A stretch of 64,000 nucleotides of DNA from an uncultured virus (IMG/VR IMGVR_UViG_3300035181_001402). Lineage: Duplodnaviria; Heunggongvirae; Uroviricota; Caudoviricetes. A program made the translations under genes and the position numbers. The number at the start of each line of letters is the position of its first letter. Position 1 is the first letter of the stretch. Positions 6,359 through 63,134 of this stretch are shown here, in pieces. Under the pieces are notes generated by a model. The model did not search any database, had not been told where the DNA came from, and was given only the letters and a program-made list of their open reading frames with translations. The stretch is taken from positions 62,001-126,000 of IMG/VR virus record IMGVR_UViG_3300035181_001402; one strand, 5' to 3'.

Positions 6359-6832
6359 TCACAGCTCGTCCGTGTTGAGCTGGTCCCAGAAGGTCTTGGG
6401 GGGCTCCGGGGTGGACGGCGTCGTGTTCTTCCCCACCCATTGTTCGAGTTCGGCCCAGTCGGGTTCGGGCCCAGCCAGCGGGAAAGCGTAGGAGTCCCGC
6501 CCACCCTCCCCATTGCGGTAAGAGACGATCAGGGTGTCTGCTTGGGGGTCGATGATATAGATCCACCTGATATCGAAGTTGTATCTCTCACTGGTCATCA
6601 AGGGTTCAGATTCGTCTACCTCCCTCTTGCCAACGAAGGCTTCCCACCTCTTCGATTTGAGCAAGAGTTTGAGATGGGAGTCAAAACCCAGACCCGTTTT
6701 GCCGGCCTGTTGCACCCAATCCCACAACTCTTTCCCAAGACCTGTGGGGTACGAATCGCAGTGGTTGTAGACGCCTTGCCACTGGGAGTAATTGCCCACT
6801 GCCACGCAACCTCGGGTGCTCATCAGACCCAC
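6359..6832 (-). CDS. Phage hypothetical protein (YxHxDxYP family) with C-terminal W-tag
   Basis: YNHCDSYPTGLGKEL; ends KTFWDQLNTDEL. Confidence 0.7.
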   Translation of the reverse strand: MGLMSTRGCVAVGNYSQWQGVYNHCDSYPTGLGKELWDWVQQAGKTGLGFDSHLKLLLKSKRWEAFVGKREVDESEPLMTSERYNFDIRWIYIIDPQADTLIVSYRNGEGGRDSYAFPLAGPEPDWAELEQWVGKNTTPSTPEPPKTFWDQLNTDEL

Positions 6833-7233
6833 CCCGGCACGTTCATCTTCTTCGCGCTACAGTCGTGGAAGTCGAAGCAGGGCTTGATGGGAGCGAGGCC
6901 GATGGCAATGTGCGCGGCCACGTTGTGGAGCACCCACCACTTATCGGGCTTCGTGGGGATCTCCTTGAGGCGCATCTCGGTGAACATCGGAACCAGGTCA
7001 CGCATCGCGCGGTTCTTGTTGAGCCAGTTCGAGGTGACCGTATGCAGCTCGACCGTCCTCATGTTCGGGAGGACCCCCAGGAGAGGGTGAGCGACGCAGT
7101 TGTGCGCCAGCCACAAGAGGTGGTGGCGAAGTCGCGGGTTCGGTGTACCGTCTTGAACGAACTTCTCGACCCTATCGTGATAGCGAGACTCGCAGGTCGG
7201 CGGCACCTCATCCTCGAAATCCTCGAAATTCAT
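6823..7233 (-). CDS. Hypothetical protein with duplicated HNxxAH motif
   Basis: WLAHNCVAHPLLG / WVLHNVAAHIAIG; GGTGTA element 10 nt upstream. Confidence 0.7.
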   Translation of the reverse strand: MNFEDFEDEVPPTCESRYHDRVEKFVQDGTPNPRLRHHLLWLAHNCVAHPLLGVLPNMRTVELHTVTSNWLNKNRAMRDLVPMFTEMRLKEIPTKPDKWWVLHNVAAHIAIGLAPIKPCFDFHDCSAKKMNVPGWV

Positions 7234-7621
7234 GGCTGATCCTTACACCGATCGTCGGTTGAAAACATCGCTACGCCGTCGAGCGCTACGCGAAAAGGCT
7301 GTCTCGTATCTTGGGGGTCGCTGCATGAACCCCAAGTGTGGGTACGATCGCTGCGTCACAGCTTTCGACTTCCACCATGTGGACCCCCGAGAGAAGGACT
7401 TCACCATCTCGGGTCGGATGACCTCTTGGAAGGTGATCCGACCCGAGCTAGACAGGTGCGTGCTTCTTTGCTGCCGCTGTCACCGGGAAGTCCACGATGG
7501 GCTTCTACCTGGTTTTCTTGCGGATGACGCGGACCGGGGCATTGATCTCGACGGGTCCGATTTTGATGGTCCATCCTTCGGGGAGGACGATGTTCCGGAT
7601 CTGCTTGAGGACGTCGCCTAA
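7232..7621 (+). CDS. HNH endonuclease
   Basis: C..CGY, FDFHHVDP.EK, ELDRCVLLCCRCHREVH. Confidence 0.8.
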   Translation: MADPYTDRRLKTSLRRRALREKAVSYLGGRCMNPKCGYDRCVTAFDFHHVDPREKDFTISGRMTSWKVIRPELDRCVLLCCRCHREVHDGLLPGFLADDADRGIDLDGSDFDGPSFGEDDVPDLLEDVA

Positions 7622-7724
7622 CTCGGCGGCGGGAGCATCCGGCGGGGCGTCGATCTGAATCGTGGCGGTGAGCTTGACCATGTAGGTAGGGTAGAAGGTT
7701 GGCCCCCCCAGGCCAACTTTGCGT

Positions 7725-8411
7725 CTACGACTTGGCGAAGGGGTCTTCGGCCTTGGGCGGGTAGAAGAAGGGCTCCGCGGGCTTCGCCGGTTCCGGAAGG
7801 GTCGCGAGATCCTCCGGAGCGGGTTCCGGAGCCGGCATGGGCTCCTCTTTCTCCAGGATCGGGCGGTCCTTCACCAGAAGACCGAGAGCTTCCTCGGTCA
7901 GGGCTTCCTGAAAACCCTTCTCGTTCGAGGTCGGGTTGAGCTTACCGGCGAGGAGGTTCCGGATGCGCTGTCCTTCCTCTTCGACCAGGGCCACGACGCG
8001 GGCCGTTGCCGCGTAGAAGTTGTCCTCGGGGATGATTCGCATGTACGACCGGCCGCCCGGGATCTCGTCCACCACATCCGGGGTGGCGGAAGTCGTGTTG
8101 AGGCACTTCTTGCCCTCGCCGTAGACGCGGTTACCTCGCGGCGGAGATTTGTACTCGTTTCCAGCACTGGCGATCCGGCCCGTGATGACGATAGCCCCCA
8201 GCTCAGCGATCCAGTAGACCTTGAGCCCCAGAGCGAGAGGGGTCGACTCCAGGGAGGTGAACCGGATCTTGGTGTAGTTGTTACAGGACTTTCGGAGCAC
8301 GGTTGCGAGATCGATCGGGAGAGCCACTTCGTGGAGGACCCTCGCGCTGAATGCGAGGGTCTCCGGAATCGTGTTGTCCTGACGGGAGATGTTGAATACT
8401 TCTCGAAGCAT
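7725..8411 (-). CDS. Hypothetical protein
   Basis: Typical codon usage from ATG 8411 (MLREVF...). Confidence 0.6.
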   Translation of the reverse strand: MLREVFNISRQDNTIPETLAFSARVLHEVALPIDLATVLRKSCNNYTKIRFTSLESTPLALGLKVYWIAELGAIVITGRIASAGNEYKSPPRGNRVYGEGKKCLNTTSATPDVVDEIPGGRSYMRIIPEDNFYAATARVVALVEEEGQRIRNLLAGKLNPTSNEKGFQEALTEEALGLLVKDRPILEKEEPMPAPEPAPEDLATLPEPAKPAEPFFYPPKAEDPFAKS

Positions 8412-8431
8412 GGGAGGGTTCTTTCCGGGGT

Positions 8432-14609: not shown

Positions 14610-15089
14610 ATGCCCACCCTGAGCATCCCTGCCATCTCGAATCCTGAGCTGGCAAAACGCGCGAAGACGATCCGTCCCGTCGGCAAGAGAGACGGCAAGC
14701 TCTACTACTACGACAGCAAGAGCGATCACCGCAACACATCGTTCTCGTGGACGACGCTGACTACCGAGGAAGCGATCGTCAAACCTCATGGTCTGACCCT
14801 TCGCACCCTGCACAGCTTCTCCTACGCCGGCTTCTTCAAGCCCAGCGTCGCGGAGGTCATCGCACAGATCCCCGAGGAAGTTCGCGATGAGGTCGTGGCT
14901 TTCCTCGTCGAGGGGCCCGATACGGTGGACGACATCAACCGCGAGAGAGAAGCCCGTGATGCCGGCTTCCATGTGGCGAAGACGACCCTCTACGTCGTGG
15001 GGAAGCCGAAGCCCCAGAAGCCCCTGCCTCCCCCGAAGCCCGAGTCGACGCCTTTCGGCAAGGCTCTCCTCGACGACGGAATCGGCTGA
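14610..15089 (+). CDS. Phage hypothetical protein with C-terminal tag cassette
   Basis: YAGFFKPSVAEVIAQIP; ends STPFGKALLDDGIG. Confidence 0.75.
   Translation: MPTLSIPAISNPELAKRAKTIRPVGKRDGKLYYYDSKSDHRNTSFSWTTLTTEEAIVKPHGLTLRTLHSFSYAGFFKPSVAEVIAQIPEEVRDEVVAFLVEGPDTVDDINREREARDAGFHVAKTTLYVVGKPKPQKPLPPPKPESTPFGKALLDDGIG
15040..15089 (+). repeat. 50-bp dispersed repeat copy 1 (tag cassette)
   Basis: 46/50 identical to 23321..23370. Confidence 0.9.
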
Positions 15090-19034: not shown

Positions 19035-19067
19035 TCCCCACGGGCTTCAGCCTGTATGAGCCTCATC

Positions 19068-19526
19068 ATGCGAAGCATTCTCAAGTCGATGATCTGTACG
19101 ACGTTCGAGGCTGTCTGCGGCAAGTGGCAGAGCAAGAAGCCCGTGCCGCAGGCCTTCAAGTTCACGTTCCGCCTTCAGACCAATCACGAGGTGGAAGAGG
19201 GCTACCGCTACCTCGACGTCCTGATCTACGGCGCGTCGAACTACGTCCAGGTCTACTGCCGGGAGCAATCCAACGTCATCTCGCTCGACGACATGGAGGA
19301 ATCGGACCCCGAGGATCAGACGGGCGAGATGGTTCCCAAAGAGGGGAAGGGCTACGTCAAGACCACGAAGCCCTGGGAGAAGGTCGCCGACCACGATTCG
19401 TGCTGGCGCGAAGGGATCGAGAAGATCCTCAAGACCTACGAGCCCCGAATCACAGCGCTCGACTCGCCTCTGTCCACCATGCCCTGGTGGGATCTGGTTC
19501 TCCCTCAAGATGAGGGGATCAGTTGA
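19068..19526 (+). CDS. Hypothetical protein (start 19056 or 19068)
   Basis: Class I promoter at 19030..19056; ends PWWDLVLPQDEGIS. Confidence 0.65.
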   Translation: MRSILKSMICTTFEAVCGKWQSKKPVPQAFKFTFRLQTNHEVEEGYRYLDVLIYGASNYVQVYCREQSNVISLDDMEESDPEDQTGEMVPKEGKGYVKTTKPWEKVADHDSCWREGIEKILKTYEPRITALDSPLSTMPWWDLVLPQDEGIS

Positions 19527-22896: not shown

Positions 22897-23370
22897 ATGG
22901 CCAAGAAGCTCTTTCATGATGACGACTGCGGGGAATTCCTGGATCAGACCGGAATGTGCCCGAAGTGCAGGTTCCACCCGGACATGCAAAGCACCTCCTT
23001 CAAAGAGGTGCCTGACGCCGACCACACGGCAGGAAGACACACCATGATCAGTATCAAAGGTTTGAACAAGGCTTCTGTTTTGGTGGCGCTGTGCAACGCC
23101 ACCCAACCCCTCGGTTTGGGGCGGCTTCAAGCTGGGATCTCTCCGAGTGAGGCCAATGCCTCCGAGAAGCTCGCCCAGTCGTCCAACATCGATTACTTCC
23201 TGGGGCGGCCCATCAAGGCCGATCTCAGCGGCGACGAGTTCGACGAGAGGCTCTTCGATCGTGATGCGGGCCCGGGGGCGGCCAAGAATGCCACCACCAA
23301 GCTGCGCGCTTCTCTCAAATCCGAGTCGACGCCTTTCAGCAAGGCTCTTCTCGACGACGATATCGGCTGA
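22897..23370 (+). CDS. Hypothetical protein with C-terminal tag cassette
   Basis: DYFLGRPIKADLSGDEFDERLFDRDAGPG; ends STPFSKALLDDDIG. Confidence 0.75.
   Translation: MAKKLFHDDDCGEFLDQTGMCPKCRFHPDMQSTSFKEVPDADHTAGRHTMISIKGLNKASVLVALCNATQPLGLGRLQAGISPSEANASEKLAQSSNIDYFLGRPIKADLSGDEFDERLFDRDAGPGAAKNATTKLRASLKSESTPFSKALLDDDIG
23321..23370 (+). repeat. 50-bp dispersed repeat copy 2 (tag cassette)
   Basis: 46/50 identical to 15040..15089. Confidence 0.9.
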
Positions 23371-24708: not shown

Positions 24709-24920
24709 GCTACCGCGCGACCCGAAACTTCACGGTAAAGCATGGTCCTGGAAGAGACCAAGTATTCAGAGCAGGGGATATCATTTCTGATGACCTGTTC
24801 AGAGAACATCCTGCACTTCAAGGAGCTGTTCACCAGGGATGGTTGGTGGGAATCCCTGAAGTCCCTCGTGGAGTATATCCTACCTGGCAAGCCCATTTGC
24901 TCGCGGACGAGATCATCTGA
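24705..24920 (+). CDS. Small paralog 1 of YRA family with W-tag
   Basis: SYRATRNF..GWLV..PTWQAHLLADEII. Confidence 0.7.
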   Translation: MSYRATRNFTVKHGPGRDQVFRAGDIISDDLFREHPALQGAVHQGWLVGIPEVPRGVYPTWQAHLLADEII

Positions 24921-24922
24921 GC

Positions 24923-25111
24923 ATGCCGTATAGGGCGACCCAAGAATTCTACTACTCGCTGATGCTCGGCGACATCACGGTCTACAAGGACGACATCGTG
25001 TCGGACTGGGAAGTGAAAGAGTACAATCTGGAGGACGCTATCAAGCAGGGTTGGCTTGTCTCATCCGAGCCCCCTACTTGGCAAGAGCGCTTGCTCGCGG
25101 ACGACCTATGA
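24923..25111 (+). CDS. Small paralog 2 of YRA family with W-tag
   Basis: PYRATQEF..GWLV..PTWQERLLADDL. Confidence 0.75.
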   Translation: MPYRATQEFYYSLMLGDITVYKDDIVSDWEVKEYNLEDAIKQGWLVSSEPPTWQERLLADDL

Positions 25112-38676: not shown

Positions 38677-39185
38677 TCCGGATCAACTTCACATGTGATG
38701 TCGTCGAACTCGAACCTCTCGACGTTGATGAAGGGGACGAAGACCTCCTCATGCTCGTCGCCACGGCCACAACCCCCATCGGGGGGAATGACCATGTGCA
38801 GCATCAGTTCGCAGCAACGGGGGAATGGGACGACATTCCGATTGCAGCGGGAGCCCGCTCGACGGGGGGACTGGTCTATCGAGAGAGACAAGCCACTCAG
38901 CCGGGGAAGTATCAAATCCGCTCGGCGGTCCGCAATGGGAAAGAATCGCATCGGAATTTCGACCTATCCATCGAACACACGGGGGGCCGAAATCTCAAGC
39001 TCACGATCGAGCCTGGGAGCACCCCTGCGTTCTGGATCATGGGCAACTTCGATCCTGTCAAGACCGGCGCAGATCGTACGACCATCCACATCGAAAACGG
39101 CCAAGTCACGTCGATCGACACGGGGAAGCCGAACGATCAGCGTCGTCCGACGGCCTGGGAGAAGATGGACGACGACGACATCTAG
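38673..39185 (+). CDS. Hypothetical protein with W-tag
   Basis: ATGA overlap; ends PTAWEKMDDDDI. Confidence 0.65.
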   Translation: MIRINFTCDVVELEPLDVDEGDEDLLMLVATATTPIGGNDHVQHQFAATGEWDDIPIAAGARSTGGLVYRERQATQPGKYQIRSAVRNGKESHRNFDLSIEHTGGRNLKLTIEPGSTPAFWIMGNFDPVKTGADRTTIHIENGQVTSIDTGKPNDQRRPTAWEKMDDDDI

Positions 39186-39206: not shown

Positions 39207-39812
39207 ATGCCCCATCAGCTAGACCCCCAAAGCGGCATGGGGATGAGCCCTCCGCGCTGCCTCATCTGCCGGGCCATCTTCAACCCCAACGAGCCGTACA
39301 CCTCGTGTGACCACATCTCGGTTGAGGACCTGTTCAAGAACCCCAAGGTTCAGACCATCTACGACATCGACATGGACGAGAAACCCGTGGGCATGGGTCT
39401 CTCGGGTGAGCGCTTCGACTTGAAGTGCCCCGACTGCGCGAAGACATTCATGCAGCTCCGAAAGTCCATGCACGGGCTCTTCTACGGGTGCCCTTCCTAC
39501 CCCGCGTGCAAGGGCACTCACGGGGCCAATGCAGACGGCGCTCCGAAAGGTATCCCTGGGGATCTCGCGACCCGTCAAGCCCGCACTGCGGTCCACCTGG
39601 TCTTCGACCGTATCTGGAACCAGCCCGGCTCCAATCTGAGCCGAATCCAGGCCTACACCTGGATGGCTGAGACCATGGGCATCCTCCCCACAGAGGCCCA
39701 CATCGCCCGATTCTCCATCGAGATGTGCGGAAAGCTTGCCATCTTGGTGCGAGAACACTTCGGGGTCACGAACGCGTGGGAAGCAATCCTCGACGACTCC
39801 ATTGGGGAGTGA
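39207..39812 (+). CDS. Topoisomerase-type C4 zinc ribbon + DUF3268-like protein with W-tag
   Basis: CPDC..MQLRKS..GLFYGCPSYPAC; AVHLVFDRIW..AYTWMA..AHIA.F; ends NAWEAILDDSIGE. Confidence 0.75.
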   Translation: MPHQLDPQSGMGMSPPRCLICRAIFNPNEPYTSCDHISVEDLFKNPKVQTIYDIDMDEKPVGMGLSGERFDLKCPDCAKTFMQLRKSMHGLFYGCPSYPACKGTHGANADGAPKGIPGDLATRQARTAVHLVFDRIWNQPGSNLSRIQAYTWMAETMGILPTEAHIARFSIEMCGKLAILVREHFGVTNAWEAILDDSIGE

Positions 39813-39816: not shown

Positions 39817-40104
39817 ATGAAACGCTACCCTGAAGGATGGGTCCCCAAACAGCGTTTGCCGGGGGTTCAGTTGAGGATGAACCAGATAGCTATCACCCAC
39901 AGGATGAAGCTGTCTTGCCCTGTCTGCGAGCGTGGGCCCATGAGGCTTATCGACGGTCCCTACGGCCGCTTCTACGGCTGCAAGCACTGGCCGGACTGCG
40001 TGTCTCGGATTGCGGCCGAGTATGACGGAACGCCGAAGTACCAGAAAAAGAAGCTGCCCCCGAAGTCCTTTGAGGAACAGCTTCTCACGGACGACTTTGA
40101 CTAG
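39817..40104 (+). CDS. Topoisomerase-type C4 zinc ribbon protein
   Basis: CPVC..MRLIDGPYGRFYGCKHWPDC; ends SFEEQLLTDDFD. Confidence 0.75.
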   Translation: MKRYPEGWVPKQRLPGVQLRMNQIAITHRMKLSCPVCERGPMRLIDGPYGRFYGCKHWPDCVSRIAAEYDGTPKYQKKKLPPKSFEEQLLTDDFD

Positions 40105-47028: not shown

Positions 47029-47856
47029 ATGGCCACCGTCATTGCTCAATGCAAGAGCTGTCATCAGATGATCTATTGGGAGGACCACATCGCGGGAGCT
47101 TGCTCCTGTCTTGAAGGCTCCTTGCGTCAGCTTCTCGCTCAGAAGCAACACGAACCGCGAGTCAAGCTACAACGACCAGCAACAATGGCCCGAACCGCGA
47201 GTCAAGCTGCGATCCGTCAACAGCTCCCCGACCTCACCCCCGAGATGCTCCTATCGAGCAGCGCCCTCCGAGAGATGAGGGCCGCCGAAGGCTACACGCA
47301 GCGCATGCCCGTTCCTCGGGCTCCCCGAGAGGACAGGAACGTCTTTCGGCGTGAGTATGCAGCCTCCTTCGACTCCGAAGATGAGCCCGCTGAGGACCCG
47401 GCGGCGTCCCTGGGGAGCCTGGAGGACATCTGGGGTGGGGCTGTGGCGAGGGATACCGGGCGGCGAGGAAGCCTCGACATCGATTTCTCGACCGGGGAGC
47501 TGGATTACGATCCCCCTGTGCAGCAAGCGAGGCCTTCGGGAATGGGGGCAGCCAGCCAGCCGCGCTTCAATGTCACGCGCCCCCCGACGGATCAGACCGC
47601 GTTCCGTCGAGAGCTGGTTGGGGCCAACATGCGAGAGATCGGACGAACCCGAAACGGGCAGGTCATCTTCTCGGATCGGAGCACCCGCTCGGTTGACGAA
47701 CCCGCGCCCCGTCCGAGCTTCATCGAGCACACCTCCAGGGCTGTGCCTGCCCCTCAAGCAAACGCCCGTACTGCGGCGATTCGAGCTGCGGAGCATGCGA
47801 AGCTCCCGACGGCGTTCGAGGTTCTACAGAGGCCCTTCCTCGAAGACGACGACTGA
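47029..47856 (+). CDS. Hypothetical protein, N-terminal Cys motif, low complexity
   Basis: CKSC..CSC; ends PTAFEVLQRPFLEDDD. Confidence 0.7.
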   Translation: MATVIAQCKSCHQMIYWEDHIAGACSCLEGSLRQLLAQKQHEPRVKLQRPATMARTASQAAIRQQLPDLTPEMLLSSSALREMRAAEGYTQRMPVPRAPREDRNVFRREYAASFDSEDEPAEDPAASLGSLEDIWGGAVARDTGRRGSLDIDFSTGELDYDPPVQQARPSGMGAASQPRFNVTRPPTDQTAFRRELVGANMREIGRTRNGQVIFSDRSTRSVDEPAPRPSFIEHTSRAVPAPQANARTAAIRAAEHAKLPTAFEVLQRPFLEDDD

Positions 47857-49872: not shown

Positions 49873-50355
49873 ATGCCCAAGCTCGACAAGAAACTCCGCC
49901 TGGAAGTCGCACAGACTGTGCTCGATGGAGGATCCGTCCTCTTTCTCACTCCGAACTCAGAAATGACTGACCGGGTTGCAGACCTCTTCAGGAAGGCGTT
50001 CGTGGAGAACGCCATGGAGGTGAAGGGCTGCGCGGAACTCACCGCCCGCAAGCTCATGAAGCCGGAAGGCGCAAATCCGAGCTATGTCCAGCTCGCGAAG
50101 GGCCCCGGCCACGCCTTCTTCCACCCGAACCAGGACATGACCGCCGACGAAGAAATCGGGAATCCGACCTTCGTTTACTGGCCGACCGAGGGCGGGGACT
50201 ACCAGAAGGTGCCCTACAACACATGGAAGAGGGAGCGGCGGGCTCACCTCTGGCGGCCGGTTCACCTGAAGGGGCAGCTCCTCTGGGAGGACACGCCGGC
50301 TGTTGTCGCGGGCCCGTTGAATGCTTGGGCCAAGATCCTGGAGGATGACCTGTGA
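49873..50355 (+). CDS. Hypothetical protein with W-tag
   Basis: Ends LNAWAKILEDDL. Confidence 0.7.
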   Translation: MPKLDKKLRLEVAQTVLDGGSVLFLTPNSEMTDRVADLFRKAFVENAMEVKGCAELTARKLMKPEGANPSYVQLAKGPGHAFFHPNQDMTADEEIGNPTFVYWPTEGGDYQKVPYNTWKRERRAHLWRPVHLKGQLLWEDTPAVVAGPLNAWAKILEDDL

Positions 50356-50594: not shown

Positions 50595-51016
50595 GCACGA
50601 CGGCTTGGGACCTGATCCTCAACGACTTCGATGAGATCGAAGAACGGATCACGGCGGCCTGCCTCGCCTGCAAAGCCCGCGGCATCATCGTCCAGTCCGG
50701 CGACTGGGGCGTCACCTATGACGAAGACTCCCACGTGTGGGTACAAGGCACACCATGGAGATCGAACCCAGGACTTCCTGTGAATCTCCTCGGCGCCTTG
50801 ATTCTCAACGAGAATCAAGGCGCCGAGACCTACATCTACGAAATGCGGGTTAGGTATGCTCCCACCGCCACGGTAAGCAGGCTCCTCGGCGTCGGGGTCG
50901 CCGGGACTATCTCATTCTTCGCGGGGTGCGATGCAGCTAGATTCCCTTCCGAGGGAACCCGGACTGCCTATGACCTCGGACAGCGGTTGGCAACAGAGAT
51001 TTCGCATCCTCTGTGA
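50591..51016 (+). CDS. Hypothetical protein with N-terminal W-tag
   Basis: MSTTAWDLILNDFDEI. Confidence 0.7.
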   Translation: MSTTAWDLILNDFDEIEERITAACLACKARGIIVQSGDWGVTYDEDSHVWVQGTPWRSNPGLPVNLLGALILNENQGAETYIYEMRVRYAPTATVSRLLGVGVAGTISFFAGCDAARFPSEGTRTAYDLGQRLATEISHPL

Positions 51017-52375: not shown

Positions 52376-52738
52376 TCAGAAGTCTTCGTCTTCTTTCATC
52401 AGACGCTCATGCCACGTCCGAACACTCGGCACCGAAGACGGCCCATAGTGCTTATAGTCGATGTGGCTCACGAATTTGCGAATGAGCTGGGGTTGCCCCA
52501 TCGCCCATCGAGCGGGATACAGAACATTGAGCCCTTGGACTTCATGGGTGTGAGGCCGGCTATACCCGTCTCGGAAGCAGACAGTCATTTCAGACTGAGC
52601 ACTGTTTGGGGGTGAATAGACATGCACCTCTTGAACATGCTCGTCGCTTCTCAAGACTGATTGAAAGTGACGGAAACGAGTGAACTCCTCGGAGTTCGAG
52701 GTGGGGAATCTCAGATCCCAAATAACCAGGTCAGGCAT
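52376..52738 (-). CDS. Hypothetical protein with W-tag
   Basis: Ends RTWHERLMKEDEDF. Confidence 0.65.
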   Translation of the reverse strand: MPDLVIWDLRFPTSNSEEFTRFRHFQSVLRSDEHVQEVHVYSPPNSAQSEMTVCFRDGYSRPHTHEVQGLNVLYPARWAMGQPQLIRKFVSHIDYKHYGPSSVPSVRTWHERLMKEDEDF

Positions 52739-52739: not shown

Positions 52740-53129
52740 TCAATCCTCCAGGATGGCATCCCAGGCCGTGGGATGCTTCAAAGGCGACCATTCCAAACAG
52801 AAGTCATCCCAAGACGAAATCCTGAATTGTTTCGAGTCGTCCCGGCGGTAAGACAGCCAGCCCTTTTTGATGGTCACGACGGAGACCATATTTCGGAAGT
52901 GTGTGGGATCCTTGTCCACGAACACCGCGTCATGGTGTACCCAATGAGGGACCAGCGTGCCCCCTTCTCTCGGTTTGAACGGGGCCCAGCCAAGCTCGAT
53001 CTTCTCGAATGAGGTGTCTACGGATTCGCCCACCGCCAGAAGCCAGATACCATCCGCAGAAAGAGCGACCACTTCAGCCCAGTAGGCGGGTCCTTCAAGC
53101 TCCAGCCAATCCCCAATTTCGTAGGCCAT
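52740..53129 (-). CDS. Hypothetical protein with W-tag
   Basis: MAYEIGDW...; ends PTAWDAILED. Confidence 0.7.
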   Translation of the reverse strand: MAYEIGDWLELEGPAYWAEVVALSADGIWLLAVGESVDTSFEKIELGWAPFKPREGGTLVPHWVHHDAVFVDKDPTHFRNMVSVVTIKKGWLSYRRDDSKQFRISSWDDFCLEWSPLKHPTAWDAILED

Positions 53130-53146
53130 CCCCAAGAGATTACACC

Positions 53147-53473
53147 ATGAAGTGGAACGTCGACAAAGCCCTGACGGAATTGGCGAAGTGGGCAAGCGAT
53201 CGGGACACCTTGGCGGGCATCTCGCAGGTCTACGTGGACGCTTCGAGGGCGACAGAGGTTGGGGTGCATCCGACCCCGCCCGAGACGCAGCGGGGTGTCT
53301 GCTTCGTCTGGAAGGTATATCTCCTCGCCGGGATGAACATCCACAGCTTCTACGGCCGGACGATCCAGGAGGCCTACCACAAGGCTCGCCGGATGCTGAG
53401 GCCGCCGGTCGGCAAGTCGACCAAGAAGAAGGTTGATCGGTTCAAACGCCGTCGTGTAGGACACGAGCAATGA
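53147..53473 (+). CDS. Hypothetical protein
   Basis: MKWNVDKAL... Confidence 0.65.
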   Translation: MKWNVDKALTELAKWASDRDTLAGISQVYVDASRATEVGVHPTPPETQRGVCFVWKVYLLAGMNIHSFYGRTIQEAYHKARRMLRPPVGKSTKKKVDRFKRRRVGHEQ

Positions 53474-53707
53474 GCGAACCCGAAACGAAAGCCGAAAAAG
53501 AACCCGCTTGCATGGCCATTTCGTGGGCCATCAACCCCTACATCGTCACCCTTGCGGTCCGGGGGGATGGTGGTGTACGTCACAAAAAGCGTGGGGACCC
53601 ACGCTCACCACAAGTACATCGGGACCTTCGGAGCCCCCGACGAAACAGCGGAGATGGAACATCTCCGCGGCTTCCGGGATCTGATCCAGAGGAAGTTCGC
53701 GAAATGA
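53470..53707 (+). pseudogene. Hypothetical gene frameshifted at G6 run 53561-53566
   Basis: Removing one G gives ..VRGMVVYVTKSVG..RKFAK* with an ATGA overlap into 53704. Confidence 0.5.
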
Positions 53708-54153: not shown

Positions 54154-54474
54154 ATGAGCGCATGTATGTCTTCTCCGACCTCCGAACGCGTCCTCGCCCG
54201 ATTTCTCCAGGCCTCTGAAGCCATCCCCAAGGGGACGCAGTTCGAGGTTGTGATGAAGCACGGGGATTGGTGGTCCGAGATGCGCAAAGGCAGCATCTTG
54301 GTTGCTCAGGACGCTGGGACCTTCGGAGCCCCCTTGACCTTCAAGGAGCGAGGGGACAGCCACGGGAGCGGGTTCCCCATGACCCCGACGAAGGTCAAAG
54401 ACAAGATCCGCTTGGTGGGCAAGCCCTACGGCGGGAAGCCCCGCGACCTCACCGTCACCATGAAGACCCCCTAG
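54154..54474 (+). CDS. Hypothetical protein with N-terminal ERVLARF motif
   Basis: MSSPTSERVLARFLQAS. Confidence 0.7.
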   Translation: MSACMSSPTSERVLARFLQASEAIPKGTQFEVVMKHGDWWSEMRKGSILVAQDAGTFGAPLTFKERGDSHGSGFPMTPTKVKDKIRLVGKPYGGKPRDLTVTMKTP

Positions 54475-54731
54475 AAGTCTTCGTCGAGCCTCTCCCACCA
54501 CGTTGGGTACGTGGGCTCAGGCCCAAGCGAGGGATCCCGAGCAGGATACCTACAGGTTGGGAGCTGCATTGAACCTATCTCAAATGGGAAGTAGGTTCTT
54601 TGCCATTTCGAACAGCGCTTGCAGATATAAACACCCGACAAGTGTCCAATTAGATTTGGGCGCGAATCTATGTGCTTCGTTCTGGTAGGATCCGACTCAA
54701 ATAGGTGACCGGCGTTATACGTCGTCGCCAT
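54471..54731 (-). CDS. Hypothetical protein with W-tag (start uncertain)
   Basis: CKRC; ends PTWWERLDEDF. Confidence 0.55.
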   Translation of the reverse strand: MATTYNAGHLFESDPTRTKHIDSRPNLIGHLSGVYICKRCSKWQRTYFPFEIGSMQLPTCRYPARDPSLGPEPTYPTWWERLDEDF

Positions 54732-55107
54732 CGAGATGCTCCCAGACCGTAGGGTTTGAAGCGTTCTCGGCCAATCGTTTTGCCTGCTCGCGGTCTCGCT
54801 CTGACAGCACTTCGCCAAGCAGGCTGTTCAGAGTGTGGGTGTCCCGCAGTTCTCGTGCTTGGGCGCGATGATCGACCACCTCTGCGCGGGCTACATCCCT
54901 CTGTCGAATGACCTTCCGAAGAATCTCGACTGACGTTTCATCGGAGTCATCGGCATATCCCGAGAGAATGCTCCGAAGCTGTGCGAGAACACGCTGGTCC
55001 TCCGTCTCTTGTCGCCGCTCGCGAACGAGGGTAATGAGCTTCGGGGCCCCGAATGCTATCGAGATGAAAAGCACTGCAAGGCTAAGGAAGGCAATGAAAG
55101 AGATCAT
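54715..55107 (-). CDS. Membrane-anchored coiled-coil protein with W-tag
   Basis: N-terminal TM; ends PTVWEHLDGDDV. Confidence 0.7.
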   Translation of the reverse strand: MISFIAFLSLAVLFISIAFGAPKLITLVRERRQETEDQRVLAQLRSILSGYADDSDETSVEILRKVIRQRDVARAEVVDHRAQARELRDTHTLNSLLGEVLSERDREQAKRLAENASNPTVWEHLDGDDV

Positions 55108-60151: not shown

Positions 60152-60360
60152 GCGCGGAGCACGACTTCGAGTCCAAGATCGTGGGGTATCGTAGAGCCCC
60201 TGAGCCCCAATGGGTTCAGGACATCGTACGCTGCTACGAACACTCCATCTGGGAGTACACCTGCAAAAACTGTGGGAAATCTTTCAGGATGGAGAGCGGT
60301 CAAATGAGCCTGCTCCTACTCATGCTGGACACTGAACTGGAGTGTCCTGGGGTGAAGTGA
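60148..60360 (+). CDS. Small zinc-finger-like protein
   Basis: H.F..CKNCG..C. Confidence 0.55.
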   Translation: MSAEHDFESKIVGYRRAPEPQWVQDIVRCYEHSIWEYTCKNCGKSFRMESGQMSLLLLMLDTELECPGVK

Positions 60361-60902
60361 TGGCGCGATGGGATCACGCTGACGAGGAGTTCTATGGTGA
60401 AGGGTCTGACGTCGAAGGGGACATCCGCCTCAACCTCGCCATGGTCGAGATGATTCGGACCGATCTCGGAGACAAGAAAGCAGCTTGGGCTCAAACCAGG
60501 CTGAATATCCCCGAGCTGGACTACTCCATGTGCTTCCGGACTGGGATGTGGCTGCGCTACGCCCAAGACCCCGTCACTCAAGTACGCCTGGAAATTCTCG
60601 ACGTCCGCTCAACAACCTGTCTCGTTTACTGCGTCGGATGGGATGAACCGTCGGAAAAAACGAAGGACACTCTCTGCCGATACAGAGTGTCTGAGCCCCC
60701 CACAGAACCACTGCCCTCCTGGGTGAAGCCCGGGGCTTGCTTTATCGATGATAATGCGAGATGGTGCATAAGAACACTTCGAGGAGGGATGTTTACTGCG
60801 ATGTCCGGTGAGTACTTCAATTACTGGACTGCTGAAGAACTTGCCCGTGGGGATGTGCGGCCCATCTTCACGGCGTGGGAACAGCTCGACGACTTGAAAT
60901 AA
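60360..60902 (+). CDS. Hypothetical protein with W-tag
   Basis: Ends FTAWEQLDDLK. Confidence 0.65.
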   Translation: MARWDHADEEFYGEGSDVEGDIRLNLAMVEMIRTDLGDKKAAWAQTRLNIPELDYSMCFRTGMWLRYAQDPVTQVRLEILDVRSTTCLVYCVGWDEPSEKTKDTLCRYRVSEPPTEPLPSWVKPGACFIDDNARWCIRTLRGGMFTAMSGEYFNYWTAEELARGDVRPIFTAWEQLDDLK

Positions 60903-61213: not shown

Positions 61214-61222
61214 TCGCTCGGG

Positions 61223-61795
61223 ATGCTGACGAAGAAGATCCTGACGGCGACGAAGCACTACCTGAGCAAGACCCCTGAAGAGAACCGCGCCTATGGCTTG
61301 GTGACGGACGGGAAGATCAACCCTGGCACCTTCCGCTTCATGCCGGTGCTGGCGTGGATTCGCAAGAAGCCCGAGAGGACAATCCTGCTCCTCTCGGGCT
61401 TCTTGCTGCGCATGACGGAGGGTGCGTTCGTGGGCGGCCTCGACTGGTCCATCCCGTTGAACCAGGAGACCGAGGACGAAGCCGCGAACCTTCTCTCGGC
61501 CTTCGGCTGGGACAATCGAGTGTGGCCTTCAGACCCGGGCTGGCCCGACCTTCTGCCGGATGAGGAACACACGCTTCACGGGATGCTCAAGAAGAAGGGC
61601 ATCCTGGAGACGCTCACGTTCCCGCCGAAGGAATCGGGCAACAAGGTGATGACGGTTCATGTGCTGAAGGTGTCGAACCCCTTCCCGCTGCCGATCCTGG
61701 TTGCCGACGAAGACCGCCAAGAGGTGACCCCCGAGATGCGGGCGAAGCTCCGCGAGCTGGTCGCCGACCCGAGCTGCTTCGCGCTGTCCTCCTAG
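61223..61795 (+). CDS. Hypothetical protein
   Basis: GGTGTA 10 nt upstream; strong codon bias. Confidence 0.7.
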   Translation: MLTKKILTATKHYLSKTPEENRAYGLVTDGKINPGTFRFMPVLAWIRKKPERTILLLSGFLLRMTEGAFVGGLDWSIPLNQETEDEAANLLSAFGWDNRVWPSDPGWPDLLPDEEHTLHGMLKKKGILETLTFPPKESGNKVMTVHVLKVSNPFPLPILVADEDRQEVTPEMRAKLRELVADPSCFALSS

Positions 61796-62088
61796 TCGTC
61801 GGCGAGAATATGCCCCCAAGCGTTGTCGGGTTTACCTTTGGGCCCTCTCGTCCGAAGCAACCTGACAATGGGGAGGTCGGCCGCCGCAACCAGGGAATCA
61901 TACAGCCCCCTGGTTGCGATGGAGCATTGGTCGATGTGGTGTACAGGGTCGGAGATATCCCGCACCGTGATGAGCCACACGCCCTTCTTCTTCTGAATGT
62001 AGACCCCTGCCCGCCAGGTGCTCATAGCCTTCGTGATGGGGTCCTGGACTCCCGTGGCGACCTCGAAGGGCTCCGGCACCCGAGCCAT
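61792..62088 (-). CDS. Hypothetical protein with W-tag
   Basis: MARVPEPF...; ends DNAWGHILADD. Confidence 0.65.
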   Translation of the reverse strand: MARVPEPFEVATGVQDPITKAMSTWRAGVYIQKKKGVWLITVRDISDPVHHIDQCSIATRGLYDSLVAAADLPIVRLLRTRGPKGKPDNAWGHILADD

Positions 62089-62414
62089 AGGGTTCTCAGT
62101 CTCACGGTAGAGATGTCTCCCGAAGGGCCGGCGCGTATACTCCGTGCTGATCTGGTTCAAAGGGATTTGAGTCTCATAGCAGACGGTCTCCCCCGCGAAA
62201 GAACGCCTCCAGGCACGAGGGACACGATCTCTCTCCGGGTGATCATGTCTCCGGGGAACCTCCCGGGTCGCCATGTCACAAGGCCCGCGACCTGGGAGGT
62301 ATTCAGCGATCGGATGACCACATGGCCGGGGCACATGTCCCCCAAAATCAGGACCGGCTTCTGCATCATGTCGAGGATCATCTTGGGGATCTACACCGCG
62401 GTGTACTCTAGGGC

Positions 62415-63134
62415 ATGGGATCGACCCCCAAAAAGACCCCCGTGAAGTACCCCTCATGGTGGACCGAGAAAGCCGCACCACATCGAAACATGTTGATGGT
62501 GCGGTACGATTACGGACACTCCAAGGAGGACAGGTCTCTGTACGGATGTCTGGTCGTGGGGGACAACCAGAAGCTCCTCTGGCTCAGCAACGAGCAGATC
62601 CGAGAGGAATGGAAGCCCTTCCGCGCGCCCTACTCCGCAGTCATCCCTCTGGGGGTATGGCCGTCGTGGGTGACTCGACGAGATGTCCAATGGCACACTG
62701 CGCCGGACCATCCTCGGCGAATGACCATCGTCTCGTACAAGAACAAGAGCTTCTGGCTCGCAACCACCACAGTGGTCGAGCCCTTCGAGGGACCGCGATT
62801 CCAAGTCTACCGGGCAACGCAGAGCTTCAAGGTCGACCTTGAGGTCATTCAATCCGGAGACCAGCTCACCCTCGATAGGGATTACAACGTGTGGTACGTG
62901 CGTAAGAAGAGCATCGCACGTTATTGCAACAGGGAGATCACAGCCTTCCTTGGCATGCAGTACCTCACCCCCGTGATTCAACCGAACGGACACCCCTTCG
63001 ATTGGAGCATTCAGAGGTACACTACACGCTTCTGGAGTCTCCATACTTTCGCTCTCAATCACCGGCCTCTGATGCCCTCAAAACCGACATCTTGGGACGT
63101 TGTGATGGCCGACGAATTCGAGGAAATGGTGTAG
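62415..63134 (+). CDS. Hypothetical protein with W-tag
   Basis: Ends PTSWDVVMADEFEEMV. Confidence 0.7.
   Translation: MGSTPKKTPVKYPSWWTEKAAPHRNMLMVRYDYGHSKEDRSLYGCLVVGDNQKLLWLSNEQIREEWKPFRAPYSAVIPLGVWPSWVTRRDVQWHTAPDHPRRMTIVSYKNKSFWLATTTVVEPFEGPRFQVYRATQSFKVDLEVIQSGDQLTLDRDYNVWYVRKKSIARYCNREITAFLGMQYLTPVIQPNGHPFDWSIQRYTTRFWSLHTFALNHRPLMPSKPTSWDVVMADEFEEMV

What the first reader, a model, noticed from the sequence alone, without database searches (positions are those of the whole stretch)
6359..63134. A shared terminal peptide tag (W-x-x-L-L-x-D-D-hydrophobic) on about 20 unrelated proteins: candidate undescribed targeting/docking system
Seen: otherwise unrelated ORFs end in the same short motif, usually after a Pro/Thr linker. 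Instances: KTFWDQLNTDEL (6359-), STPFGKALLDDGIG (15089), PWWDLVLPQDEGIS (19526), STPFSKALLDDDIG (23370), PTWQAHLLADEII (24920), PTWQERLLADDL (25111), ATWHDHLMEDD (25305), PTAWEKMDDDDI (39185), TNAWEAILDDSIGE (39812), KSFEEQLLTDDFD (40104), PTTWHSKLLEEGDEIG (43211), PTAFEVLQRPFLEDDD (47856), LNAWAKILEDDL (50355), RTWHERLMKEDEDF (52376-), PTAWDAILED (52740-), PTWWERLDEDF (54471-), PTVWEHLDGDDV (54715-), FTAWEQLDDLK (60902), DNAWGHILADD (61792-), PTSWDVVMADEFEEMV (63134). It also occurs near N-termini: TNAWEALMADDDG in the kinase (33612) and MSTTAWDLILNDFDEI (50591). Carriers include soluble, zinc-ribbon and membrane-anchored proteins, while core enzymes such as NadV, PurA and dNMP kinase lack it. 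Inference: this is a short amphipathic helix plus acidic tail read by one hub protein. Possible roles are recruitment to a phage compartment or nucleus, virion loading, a protease adaptor/degron, or an SSB-tail-like docking site. I know of no description of this tag.
Basis: partly seen in the sequence, partly recalled or inferred. Interest (0 to 1): 0.92.

Follow-up and report, generated by a model that had tools for sequence, protein, structure and literature searches.

The report
Shared terminal peptide tag in megaphages
Dozens of mostly unrelated small proteins of an uncultured giant bacteriophage end in the same short tryptophan-leucine-acidic peptide, which looks like a docking tag for a still unidentified partner protein.

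Summary
The window is part of a megaphage: a 128 kb contig identical to a 350 kb IMG/VR contig that CheckV rates 73% complete. The major capsid protein resembles that of Bacillus phage G.

About 43 proteins end in [K/R/P]-P-T-x-W-[E/D]-x-[L/I]-L-x-D-D-x-hydrophobic, or in two cases begin with it.

- A motif profile gives 35 hits of 9 bits or more: 33 C-terminal, 2 N-terminal, 0 internal.
- Shuffles give about 1.5-1.9 carriers against 20 observed.
- A jumbo phage of matched G+C content (Tunturi_5) gives 0 hits.
- Synonymous codons vary freely, so this is not a DNA repeat.
- Carrier bodies are almost all unrelated.
- Between 94%-related phages the tag is more conserved than the body (79% vs 69% identity).

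The tag recurs on different, non-orthologous proteins in two complete megaphages (437 and 529 kb) and two partial ones. Variant tails sit on core proteins: a 172-aa Tudor-like protein, DNA methyltransferases and RNase HII.

The best reading is a portable docking motif read by a conserved phage-encoded hub. The hub was not identified. Candidates are a newly recognised divergent phage beta-clamp, phage ClpX, the capsid, a SLOG protein or a host protein. Seven library searches found no description.

The parts
6362..6400 (-). C-terminal tag ...PKTFWDQLNTDEL of a 148-aa ORFan (6359-6805)
   Evidence: 12.6 bits, ends 1 aa from the C-terminus
15045..15086 (+). F-variant tag STPFGKALLDDGIG of a 159-aa ORFan (14610-15089)
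   Evidence: seen; profile score -1.6 bits, so a weak variant
19479..19523 (+). Tag MPWWDLVLPQDEGIS of a 156-aa protein (19056-19526)
   Evidence: 11.8 bits; the G004 ortholog lacks the tag
23326..23367 (+). F-variant tag STPFSKALLDDDIG of a 157-aa protein (22897-23370)
   Evidence: 3.7 bits; near-identical tail to 15045-15086, bodies not alignable
24879..24917 (+). Tag PTWQAHLLADEII; ORF ends at 24920 and its true start is probably near 24.7 kb
   Evidence: 16.0 bits; conserved in G002; weak paralog of the next two genes
25070..25108 (+). Tag PPTWQERLLADDL of a 62-aa protein (24923-25111)
   Evidence: 18.5 bits
25270..25302 (+). Tag ATWHDHLMEDD of a 65-aa protein (25108-25305)
   Evidence: 16.1 bits
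33663..33704 (+). N-terminal tag TNAWEALMADDDG (residues 18-31) of the Ser/Thr kinase (33612-34526)
   Evidence: 13.6 bits; Pkinase; the G004 ortholog has RPTVWDRLLDEGEE at residues 41-51
39144..39182 (+). Tag RPTAWEKMDDDDI of a 170-aa ORFan (38673-39185)
   Evidence: 19.0 bits; identical in G002
39768..39809 (+). Tag TNAWEAILDDSIGE of a DUF3268/Zn-ribbon protein (39237-39812)
   Evidence: 11.5 bits; Pfam
40063..40101 (+). F-variant tag KSFEEQLLTDDFD of a Zn-ribbon protein (39817-40104)
   Evidence: 5.1 bits
43137..43208 (+). Tag TTWHSKLLEEGDEIG followed by 8 more residues; 157-aa protein (42738-43211)
   Evidence: 4.8 bits; kept in G002
47806..47853 (+). F-variant tag PTAFEVLQRPFLEDDD of a 223-aa protein (47185-47856)
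   Evidence: the G003 ortholog ends ...MSAYERIINGQGPLDD
50317..50352 (+). Tag LNAWAKILEDDL of a 160-aa protein (49873-50355)
   Evidence: 11.4 bits
50597..50638 (+). N-terminal tag (M)STTAWDLILNDFDEI of a 141-aa protein (50591-51016)
   Evidence: 10.2 bits, residues 3-14
52379..52420 (-). Tag RTWHERLMKEDEDF (ORF ending at 52376)
   Evidence: 16.4 bits
52743..52775 (-). Tag HPTAWDAILED of a 129-aa protein (52740-53129)
   Evidence: 13.0 bits
54474..54509 (-). Tag YPTWWERLDEDF of ORF 54471-54818 (missed by my gene caller)
   Evidence: 19.0 bits
54718..54753 (-). Tag NPTVWEHLDGDDV of a 130-aa protein with an N-terminal hydrophobic segment (54715-55107)
   Evidence: 17.6 bits; TM-like segment at residues 1-19
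60867..60899 (+). Tag FTAWEQLDDLK of a 181-aa protein (60357-60902)
   Evidence: 11.6 bits
61795..61830 (-). Tag PDNAWGHILADD of a 122-aa protein (61792-62160)
   Evidence: 12.9 bits
63084..63131 (+). Tag KPTSWDVVMADEFEEMV of a 239-aa protein (62415-63134)
   Evidence: 11.9 bits
3848..3880 (-). Variant tail FAYMNALMEEF of the D12 adenine methylase (3845-4777)
   Evidence: not detected by the profile
5488..5517 (-). Variant tail EPLLSWEVDL of RNase HII (5485-6150)
   Evidence: orthologs in G003 and G004 also end in aromatic plus acidic tails

Best explanation
The tag is a portable short linear docking motif. It has a short amphipathic stretch (T-x-W-[E/D]-x-[L/I]-L) followed by an acidic run, usually closed by a hydrophobic residue, and it sits on a flexible Pro/Thr/Lys-rich linker at the very end of the protein, rarely at the very start.

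It is characteristic of one clade of phage-G-like megaphages. It is old on a few core proteins: a 172-aa Tudor/KOW-like protein, an N6/N4 DNA methyltransferase, RNase HII and a Ser/Thr kinase. In some lineages it has been placed on dozens of fast-evolving, mutually unrelated accessory proteins.

Inferred, not shown: all carriers dock through it to one conserved phage-encoded hub.

My odds for the hub:
- about 0.3: the phage's own very divergent beta sliding clamp. The tag would then be a private clamp-binding motif that concentrates carriers on phage DNA and the replisome, as the C-terminal tails of T4 gp43, gp33 and gp55 do on gp45.
- about 0.2: phage ClpX, with the tag acting as an adaptor, degron or activator tail.
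- about 0.25: another phage protein, such as the capsid or scaffold, the YAcAr/SLOG protein, or the E1-JAB module.
- about 0.15: a host protein.
- about 0.1: no hub at all.
For: Shown:
- Strict terminal position: 33 C-terminal, 2 N-terminal and 0 internal among 35 profile hits.
- Strong enrichment over shuffles and over a GC-matched phage.
- Free synonymous variation at every tag codon.
- 43 carriers with only 1 BLASTP-related pair.
- The tag is more conserved than the body or the linker between G001 and G002. Identity is 278/350 in the tag, 2090/3046 in the body and 345/541 in the linker, with Fisher p of 2e-5 and 5e-7.
- The same motif recurs at ORF ends in distant megaphages: G003 12 C-terminal hits of 13, G004 20 of 26, G014 12 hits and G018 11 hits. 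Carriers are mostly not orthologous: 4 of 43 have a homolog in G003 and 3 of 43 in G004.
- Where orthologs exist, the tail is usually kept at 26-40% body identity.
- The last ~25 residues of the core 172-aa carrier are predicted disordered, with pLDDT of 42-59.

For a core hub:
- The tag-poor complete genome G013 still has tag-like tails on the 172-aa protein (NRFTRLFNDDDD) and on the methyltransferase (FDFMMGLESE).

For the clamp:
- The phages encode clamp-loader tau/gamma, delta and delta'.
- They also encode a 426-aa protein that hits phrog_947 'processivity factor' at E 2e-5. It folds at pLDDT 95.5, and its top Foldseek hits are all bacterial DnaN at E about 1e-16 and TM 0.66-0.79.
- Carriers include DNA enzymes that bind clamps in other systems, such as RNase HII and DNA methyltransferases (the link to clamps is recalled knowledge).
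- PolA N-termini carry an acidic run plus D-[FL]-[LMF] in 6 of 6 genomes.

For ClpX:
- It is present in 16 of 18 related records.
- The 172-aa carrier lies 5-9 kb from clpX in 4 of 5 genomes.
- Mycobacterial ClpX is activated by the acidic C-terminal tail of SSB, and this needs the terminal Phe (PMC7847540, abstract and passages).
Against: - No partner was identified by any test here.
- Most carriers are ORFans with no DNA-related domain, which is odd for clamp clients.
- The tag does not match the bacterial clamp-binding consensus QL[SD]LF (consensus recalled). PolA's N-terminal motif lacks the W-helix.
- The clamp and ClpX are also present in the tag-poor clade, so neither explains why the tag expanded only in some lineages.
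- ClpP is absent from G001, G004 and G013, and known ClpX degrons are not acidic (recalled).
- The genes that track tag-rich genomes are the YAcAr/SLOG protein and an E1-JAB-VWA block, not the clamp or ClpX. However, the clamp tree shows that this pattern reflects about one evolutionary event.
- G012 has the E1 block but 0 tag hits in its 255 kb.
Confidence: 0.6

Rival explanations
1. Capsid cargo-loading peptide. The tag would bind the inside of the procapsid (major capsid protein or scaffold), so that carriers are packaged and co-injected, as encapsulin cargo-loading peptides and the T4 capsid-targeting sequence do.
For: - The anatomy matches encapsulin cargo tags: unrelated cargoes, a flexible linker, and a short tag that is C-terminal and rarely N-terminal (comparison recalled).
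- The HK97-type major capsid protein (293 aa, homolog of phage G gp27, PDB 6wkk, E 1.5e-62) is 91-95% identical among G001, G003 and G004, while the next most conserved proteins are at or below 70%. That is the kind of constraint expected of a multi-partner surface.
- Carriers include plausible 'first-minute' effectors: a kinase, an ArdC-like anti-restriction protein and methylases.
Against: - Carriers lie in the accessory and nucleotide-metabolism arms (G001 1-95 kb and 248-347 kb). None lies in the 95-248 kb structural and replication block.
- The capsid protein is equally present in the tag-poor clade and in Tunturi_5.
- No virion proteome exists for these uncultured phages.
Confidence: 0.12
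2. Reader is a lineage-specific accessory system. The candidates are the YAcAr/SLOG protein (131 aa) or the E1(ThiF)-JAB-88aa-VWA block. In the second case the W-x-x-L plus acidic core would act like an Atg8-interacting (LIR/AIM) motif on a ubiquitin-like hub.
For: - Of 134 genes shared by G001, G003 and G004, only 12 lack a homolog in the tag-poor complete genome G013. These include the contiguous E1-HNH-88aa-JAB-323aa-VWA block and YAcAr.
- YAcAr is found in 7 of 7 records with 4 or more tag hits and in 1 of 12 with 3 or fewer (Fisher p 1.6e-4).
- The E1 block is present in both tag-rich complete genomes and absent from the three tag-poor complete genomes.
- The E1 resembles CBASS Cap2-type E1 at E 4.5e-20.
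- The JAB motif HxH..S..D is visible in the sequence, and Prok-JAB scores E 0.009.
- The tag core fits [WFY]-x-x-[LIV] flanked by acidic residues (LIR consensus recalled).
Against: - Nearly all tag-poor genomes form one clade with 98/95 support. The co-occurrence therefore amounts to about one event and could be shared history.
- G012 has the E1 block and 0 tag hits. G014 and G018 are tag-rich, but the block was not found in their partial contigs.
- Tag-like tails persist in G013, which lacks both systems.
- The 88-aa protein matches no family and its fold was not predicted.
- [WFY]xx[LIV] is a very loose pattern.
Confidence: 0.12
3. No hub. The tail would act in cis, either as an acidic autoinhibitory or DNA-mimic tail folding back on its own protein, or as a nascent-peptide or termination signal that tunes translation of the carrier or the downstream gene.
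For: - Acidic C-terminal tails that fold back on DNA-binding surfaces are known, for example T7 gp2.5 and HMGB1 (recalled).
- Some carriers are zinc-ribbon DNA binders.
- 32% of carriers overlap the next gene's start, against 19% of other genes (9 of 28 vs 76 of 390).
Against: - The conserved P-T-x-W-E-x-L-L part is identical in style on unrelated bodies, which cannot all offer the same cis surface.
- Two tags are N-terminal. Several are followed by 4-13 extra residues, which does not fit a stop-codon-linked mechanism.
- Stop-codon usage of carriers (TGA 23 of 34) equals that of other genes (321 of 474).
Confidence: 0.08
4. Artefact. The pattern would come from a DNA-level repeat at gene ends, from amino-acid composition, or from one hidden paralogous family.
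For: - A few carriers are related. There is a tandem trio at 24.6-25.3 kb, a zinc-ribbon pair, and near-identical tails at 15089 and 23370.
Against: - Every synonymous position varies among the 20 tags tabulated.
- Shuffles that keep the tail composition give 1.9 carriers against 20 observed.
- A 58%-GC jumbo phage gives 0 hits.
- 42 of 43 carrier bodies have no BLASTP relative among the carriers beyond the single pair.
- Carriers differ between genomes.
Confidence: 0.02

Closest known systems
Clamp-interacting terminal tails (T4 gp43/gp33/gp55 on gp45; bacterial QL[SD]LF on DnaN; PIP boxes on PCNA)
   Same: A short hydrophobic motif at the extreme C- or N-terminus, after a flexible linker, on unrelated proteins. 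A phage-encoded clamp and clamp loader are present. Some carriers are DNA enzymes.
   Different: The sequence differs (W-x-x-[LI]-L plus an acidic run; no Gln). There are around 40 carriers, most of them ORFans without DNA-related domains. Binding is not shown.
Encapsulin cargo-loading peptides / T4 capsid-targeting sequence
   Same: A portable terminal tag on unrelated cargo behind a flexible linker. An HK97-fold shell protein is present and extraordinarily conserved.
   Different: The consensus is different. Carriers are encoded outside the structural module. There is no evidence of packaging.
ClpX recognition tags and adaptor tails (ssrA, SspB XB peptide; SSB C-tail activation of mycobacterial ClpX, PMC7847540)
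   Same: Terminal position (C or N) and a phage-encoded ClpX conserved across the clade. The core 172-aa carrier has the layout 'beta-rich body + disordered linker + terminal peptide'. There is precedent for an acidic tail with a terminal hydrophobic residue acting on ClpX.
   Different: The tags are acidic, unlike known ClpX degrons (recalled). No ClpP is found in most of these phages. The 172-aa body did not match SspB in the fold searches; its best matches are CarD/UvrD Tudor-like domains at Z 6.6-7.0, which is generic.
SSB C-terminal tail (acidic run + I-P-F-COOH)
   Same: An acidic run closed by a hydrophobic residue at the C-terminus, such as ...DDDIG, ...DDDDI, ...EDEDF.
   Different: Here the tail sits on the clients, not on one hub. 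There is no P-F-COOH. No SSB-family protein was found in G001, G003 or G004. An extra W-helix is present.
LIR/AIM (Atg8-interacting) motifs
   Same: A core of aromatic-x-x-aliphatic flanked by acidic residues, sometimes at the extreme C-terminus. An E1-like/JAB module is encoded by the tag-rich phages.
   Different: No Atg8-like protein was identified. The pattern is loose. The phyletic link rests on about one event.

Membership tests
Bacterial beta-clamp-binding motif (CBM) | Penta/hexapeptide consensus Q-L-[S/D]-L-F or Q-L-x-L-x-L (recalled) | tested here: not met
   The alignments of 29 and 39 tags give T-x-W-x-x-L-L-x-D-D, with no conserved Gln.
Bacterial beta-clamp-binding motif (CBM) | A DnaN-type clamp is available as receptor | tested here: met
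   The 426-aa protein (G001 219634-220914) hits phrog_947 at E 2e-5. AF2 gives pLDDT 95.5. Foldseek top hits are all DnaN at E about 1e-16. Pfam DnaN models themselves did not hit.
Bacterial beta-clamp-binding motif (CBM) | The motif binds the hydrophobic cleft between clamp domains II and III | not testable with these tools
   The one complex job gave no verdict (see Tried and rejected). Peptide binding or a co-structure is needed.
SSB C-terminal tail | Acidic run ending in (I/L)-P-F-COOH on an OB-fold SSB | tested here: not met
   None of the 43 tags ends in P-F. Carriers are unrelated proteins. PF00436 gave 0 hits in 3 genomes.
Encapsulin-type cargo-loading peptide | Short terminal tag after a flexible linker on unrelated cargo proteins | tested here: met
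Encapsulin-type cargo-loading peptide | Cargo genes adjacent to the shell gene, and the tag binds the shell interior | tested here: not met
   Adjacency is not met: no carrier lies in the 95-248 kb block that holds the capsid gene at 190 kb. Binding was not tested.
ClpX degron / adaptor tail | Terminal peptide plus a cognate ClpX | tested here: met
   Terminal position. ClpX with a zf-C4_ClpX domain is present and occurs in 16 of 18 related records.
ClpX degron / adaptor tail | Partner ClpP peptidase, and a sequence class of known ClpX tags (non-polar C-terminus such as LAA; recalled) | tested here: not met
   PF00574 was found only in G003 among 5 records. The tags have a net charge of -3 (median).
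LIR/AIM motif | [W/F/Y]-x-x-[L/I/V] core with acidic flanks (recalled) | tested here: met
   Tag alignments. This is a loose pattern, so the match is weak evidence.
LIR/AIM motif | Atg8-family ubiquitin-like receptor | tested here: inconclusive
   E1-like and JAB-like genes are present. The 88-aa neighbour matches no family and was not folded.

The most novel reading that the evidence does not exclude
A clade of megaphages runs a private 'address label' system. One conserved phage hub would read a 12-15-residue terminal tag, so that any newly acquired accessory gene can be plugged into the phage's replication and DNA factory, or its turnover machinery, simply by gaining the tail. The hub is most attractively the phage's own highly divergent beta-clamp, which its own clamp loader would load on phage DNA. 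This would be a bacterial-virus counterpart of the PCNA/PIP-box network, with about 8% of the proteome as clients, and a compartment-free way of telling phage DNA from host DNA.
Probability: 0.25. Interest if true: 0.9.

Novelty: new variant of a known kind. Interest (0 to 1): 0.8.

Why it matters
Terminal peptide tags that plug unrelated proteins into one hub are central organising devices in cells. Examples are PIP boxes, SSB tails, degrons and cargo-loading peptides.

I found no report of a phage in which about 8% of the proteins (43 of 533) share such a tag. These proteins are mostly ORFans, which otherwise give no handle for study.

- The tag groups dozens of 'dark matter' proteins of uncultured megaphages into one functional class.
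- It gives a direct bait for finding their common partner.
- It shows how giant phages may integrate newly gained genes.
- The 12-15-residue tag could also serve as a recruiting handle in synthetic biology.

Tried and rejected
- **Complex prediction**. I folded the phage clamp (2 copies, alignment of 50) with the 34-aa tail of the 38673-39185 protein (alignment of 39 tails). The verdict was 'no answer', with scores of 0.00 and 0.00, and the controls were not run. This is evidence neither for nor against binding.
- **Pfam DnaN models** (PF00712, PF02767, PF02768) gave no hit in G000-G004. The clamp was found only through PHROGs and its fold.
- **SSB** (PF00436) gave no hit.
- **Phyletic profiling against Tunturi_5** was too coarse. 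Only 32 of the 134 core genes are shared.
- **Profiling against G013** left 12 candidates. The clamp tree then showed that the tag-poor genomes form one clade, so the YAcAr and E1 correlations carry little independent weight. The 101-aa HNH gene in that list is scattered like a homing endonuclease.
- **Fold of the 172-aa core carrier.** Foldseek gave no match at E of 0.001 or better. VIA-wide gave only generic Tudor/KOW/SH3 matches at Z of 7.0 or less. SspB was not among the listed matches, which does not exclude it.
- **The search for homologous proteins** for the 172-aa carrier returned only 2 proteins.
- **PADLOC** recognised only the E1.
- **Earlier findings of this scan**: none for this genome.
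- **DNA pattern scan** of IMG/VR returned 45 stretches. Only 8 were ORF-terminal tags, all on contigs of 234 kb or more. The other 37 were internal chance matches or an unrelated low-GC family.
- **Not done:** tRNA scans found none, so the host was not inferred. Chimallin and phage-nucleus genes were not searched for.

Full report
**What the window is.** The window is bases 62,001-126,000 of a single 128,096-bp contig at about 60% G+C. Its DNA polymerase gene is 100% identical to one on a 350,469-bp IMG/VR contig (G001, CheckV completeness 73%) and 94% identical to one on a 275,300-bp contig (G002). The 128 kb contig overlaps G001 positions 1-115,820 in reverse and runs about 12 kb past its end.

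Annotation:
- Tail and baseplate genes, a portal and a prohead protease.
- A 293-aa HK97-type major capsid protein that matches phage G gp27 (PDB 6wkk) at E 1.5e-62.
- A family-A DNA polymerase, DnaB, primase, clamp-loader tau/gamma, delta and delta', RecA, RecD2, NAD-ligase and ribonucleotide reductase.
- GroEL, ClpX, further AAA+ proteins, a sigma-region-4 protein and a volactin-like actin.

The nearest records in the isolate collection are an uncultured 485-kb phage (LR745208, capsid 82% identical), Tunturiibacter phage Tunturi_5 (48%) and Bacillus phage G (39%). The window therefore belongs to an uncultured megaphage of the phage-G lineage. No tRNA was found, and the host was not determined.

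- A simple pattern, W-x(2,3)-[ILVM]-x(0,3)-[DE][DE], matches 33 times in 37,879 residues. Of these, 17 end within 5 residues of a C-terminus.
- In the 350-kb contig, 20 proteins carry it at the C-terminus. Whole-protein shuffles give a mean of 1.47 (max 5). Shuffling only the last 20 residues gives a mean of 1.88 (max 7). Each used 500 shuffles.
- A profile built from 29 W-tails finds 35 stretches of 9 bits or more in the merged proteome of 533 proteins. 33 lie within 11 residues of the C-terminus, 2 lie at the N-terminus (the kinase at 33612, and the protein at 50591), and none is internal. Six of these are not seeds.
- In a six-frame ORF scan at 8 bits or more, this phage gives 30 hits (27 C-terminal). 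Tunturi_5, at 308 kb and 58% G+C, gives 0 of 2,526 ORFs. Composition is therefore not the cause.

With the weaker F/Y variants added by hand I count 43 carriers in G001 plus the extra 12 kb. Their median length is 132 aa. Only 2 have an N-terminal hydrophobic segment. The tag has a median net charge of -3, with on average 1.9 prolines just before it.

The consensus is [K/R/P]-P-T-x-W-[E/D]-x-[L/I]-L-x-[D/E]-D-x-hydrophobic.

**Protein level, not DNA level.** In the 20 tags tabulated codon by codon, Pro, Thr, Ala, Leu, Asp and Glu use all their synonymous codons, and the flanks are unrelated. Stop-codon use after tags (TGA 23 of 34) equals that of other genes (321 of 474). Overlap with the next gene is somewhat more common, 9 of 28 against 76 of 390.

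**Not one family.** With tails removed, BLASTP at E of 1e-3 or better links only one pair among the 43, the two zinc-ribbon proteins at 39237 and 39817. A more sensitive look shows that the three tandem small genes ending at 24920, 25111 and 25305 are weak paralogs. Most carriers have no Pfam family. Exceptions are:
- the DUF3268/zinc-ribbon proteins;
- an ArdC-N/M78 protein (G001 288100-288993);
- an RlaP protein with a truncated tag;
- the Ser/Thr kinase, whose tag is N-terminal.

**Selection and phylogenetic spread.**
- 28 of the 43 carriers have a G002 ortholog. Identity between G001 and G002 is 79.4% in the tag (278/350), 63.8% in the 20 residues before it (345/541) and 68.6% in the rest (2090/3046). 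Fisher p is 5e-7 and 2e-5.
- A degenerate DNA pattern for P-T-A-W-[DE]-x-hydrophobic-x-[DE]-[DE] hit 45 places in IMG/VR. Only 8 were at ORF ends, all on contigs of 234 kb or more.
- Two of those contigs are complete, distant megaphages: G003 (528,957 bp, 64% G+C) and G004 (437,331 bp, terminal repeats, 55% G+C).
- The profile finds 13 hits of 7 bits or more in G003 (12 C-terminal, 1 N-terminal) and 26 in G004 (20 C-terminal, 1 N-terminal, 5 internal).
- The carriers themselves are not shared. Only 4 and 3 of my 43 have any homolog in G003 and G004, although 134 of 533 proteins are shared by all three.
- Where a carrier does have an ortholog, the tail is usually kept even at 26-40% body identity. 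One counter-example is the 19056-19526 protein, whose G004 ortholog has no tag.

The tag is therefore portable and repeatedly placed on new proteins.

**Core carriers.** A 172-aa protein (contig 53,064-53,582, just upstream of the window) has orthologs in G002, G003, G004, G013 and G014 and in one metagenome protein. All 7 end in K-P-x(2-4)-N-A-[F/Y]-x-[R/H]-L-[L/M/F]-x-D-D.
- Its model (pLDDT 84) is beta-rich, with a disordered last ~25 residues.
- Its N-terminal domain resembles Tudor/KOW/SH3 domains: CarD at Z 7.0 and the UvrD C-terminal domain at Z 6.6. These are generic scores.

N6/N4 DNA methyltransferase orthologs end in F-x-[FL]-[LM]-M-x-L-acidic in G001, G004, G013, G014 and G018. RNase HII ends in aromatic plus acidic tails in G001, G003 and G004. 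The kinase keeps an N-terminal tag in G001, G002 and G004. PolA N-termini have an acidic run followed by D-[FL]-[LMF] in 6 of 6 genomes.

*A hidden clamp.* The phages have clamp-loader genes but gave no Pfam DnaN hit. A conserved 426-aa protein (G001 219634-220914) hits PHROG 947 'DNA polymerase processivity factor' at E 2e-5. It has 144 metagenomic homologs, many on contigs of several hundred kb. It folds with pLDDT 95.5. Its best Foldseek matches are all bacterial DnaN, at E about 1e-16, TM 0.66-0.79 and about 14% identity. This is a very divergent phage beta-clamp, and a natural hub for terminal motifs. The single complex-prediction job I could run on it returned no verdict (see Tried and rejected).

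*Phyletic profiles.* Using the clamp alignment I found 25 further viral contigs and searched 18 records with a 20-position tag profile.
- Tag-rich records: G001 with 30 hits, G004 with 32, G003 with 17, G014 with 12 and G018 with 11.
- Intermediate: G011 with 4.
- Records with 3 or fewer hits: twelve, including the complete genomes G009 (2), G013 (0) and G015 (3 weak), plus Tunturi_5 (0).
- ClpX is in 16 of 18 records. The clamp is in all of the IMG/VR records, because that is how they were selected. Neither gene distinguishes tag-rich from tag-poor genomes.
- Of the 134 genes shared by G001, G003 and G004, 122 have a homolog in G013. The 12 that do not include a contiguous E1(ThiF)-HNH-88aa-JAB-323aa-VWA block (G001 258-263 kb) and a 131-aa YAcAr/SLOG protein.
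- The E1 block is in G001/G005, G003, G004, G011 and G012.
- YAcAr is in G001, G002, G003, G004, G011, G014, G016 and G018. That is 7 of 7 records with 4 or more tags and 1 of 12 with 3 or fewer (p 1.6e-4).
- A maximum-likelihood tree of the clamp puts G006, G008, G009, G013, G015 and G017 in one clade (support 98/95), apart from the tag-rich grade. The correlation therefore reflects roughly one evolutionary event.
- G013 still has tag-like tails on its core carriers.

**Reading.** Three things are shown:
- a terminal, protein-level, selected, portable motif;
- restriction to one megaphage clade;
- presence on core DNA enzymes and on many ORFans.

It is inferred that the tag docks its carriers to one conserved partner. 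I rank the divergent phage clamp first, at about 0.3. The reasons are that terminal position on either end is typical of clamp clients, that RNase HII and methyltransferases are among the ancestral carriers, that the clamp and loader are private to the phage, and that the polymerase has a related acidic-aromatic N-terminus.

ClpX comes second, at about 0.2. It is a core gene, and the 172-aa carrier lies 5-9 kb from clpX in 4 of 5 genomes. An acidic SSB tail with a terminal Phe activates mycobacterial ClpX (PMC7847540, abstract and passages read). Phage G particles contain ClpX and ClpP (PMC12484599, passages read). ClpP, however, is missing from G001, G004 and G013.

Capsid loading, the SLOG or E1-JAB systems, a host target and purely cis functions remain possible. 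They are given as rivals with their evidence.

**Novelty.** Searches of the paper library gave no description of such a shared tag. I searched for phage C-terminal motifs, jumbo-phage short linear motifs, clamp-binding motifs with tryptophan, shared C-terminal peptide tags, and huge phages with ClpX or clamps. I also read passages of the jumbo-phage comparative survey PMC7824862. Of these papers I saw only listings, abstracts and the passages named. No supplementary file was opened.

The kind of device, a terminal docking peptide, is known. The sequence, the scale (about 8% of proteins) and the setting (megaphage accessory proteins) appear new.

Noticed in passing
G001 219634-220914 (outside the window; locus L153:1638-2915, minus strand): A very divergent phage beta sliding clamp (426 aa, about 14% identical to bacterial DnaN). 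Pfam DnaN models miss it. It was recognised through PHROG 947, an AF2 model (pLDDT 95.5) and Foldseek. It has 144 homologs on large metagenomic contigs, all labelled hypothetical.
   Followed up: yes
G001 190469-191350 (L019:10472-11350, minus strand): The 293-aa major capsid protein is 95% and 91% identical to those of G003 and G004, while the next most conserved shared proteins are at or below 70%. This is unusually strong constraint on a small HK97-type subunit that must build a giant head.
   Followed up: partly
G001 258227-263321 (L022/L023): A conserved block of ThiF-type E1 (similar to the CBASS Cap2 E1 domain at E 4.5e-20), an HNH gene, an 88-aa protein, a JAB-like protein with an HxH..S..D motif, a 323-aa coiled-coil protein ending in a poly-Asp run, and a 641-aa VWA protein. 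It is present in G001/G005, G003, G004, G011 and G012 and absent from G009, G013 and G015. It may be a phage ubiquitin-like conjugation system or an anti-CBASS module.
   Followed up: partly
G008, G013, G015 (clpX loci): In three related megaphages the ClpX match is split into residues 6-120 and 117-414 within open frames of 777-795 aa. This suggests an insertion of about 360 aa, possibly an intein, in ClpX.
   Followed up: no
window 20099-22669 (+): An 856-aa protein with no Pfam hit is about 30% identical over 91% of its length to 'vWFA domain' proteins of Ackermannviridae-like phages of enterobacteria and Aeromonas (473 records).
   Followed up: no
window 26106-28219 and 32269-33612 (+): An NAD salvage and purine set sits inside the tag-rich arm: an NrtR-like NUDIX regulator, a NAMPT-type phosphoribosyltransferase, a second NUDIX protein and adenylosuccinate synthetase. 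None of them carries the tag.
   Followed up: no
window 959-2599 (+): A type IB ('eukaryotic') topoisomerase catalytic core (PF01028, E 1e-25) in a 546-aa phage protein.
   Followed up: no
G001 169117-170136 (L018:9120-10136, minus strand): A volactin-family actin-like protein (PF25216, E 1.6e-75), 63-69% identical across G001, G003 and G004. It lies in the structural region next to a ferritin-like protein.
   Followed up: no
window 24564-24933: My codon-usage gene caller preferred ORF 24742-24933. However, the tag-bearing frame ending at 24920 is conserved in G002 and is paralogous to the next two genes. The real gene probably starts near 24.7 kb at an M-x-Y-R-A start like its paralogs.
   Followed up: partly
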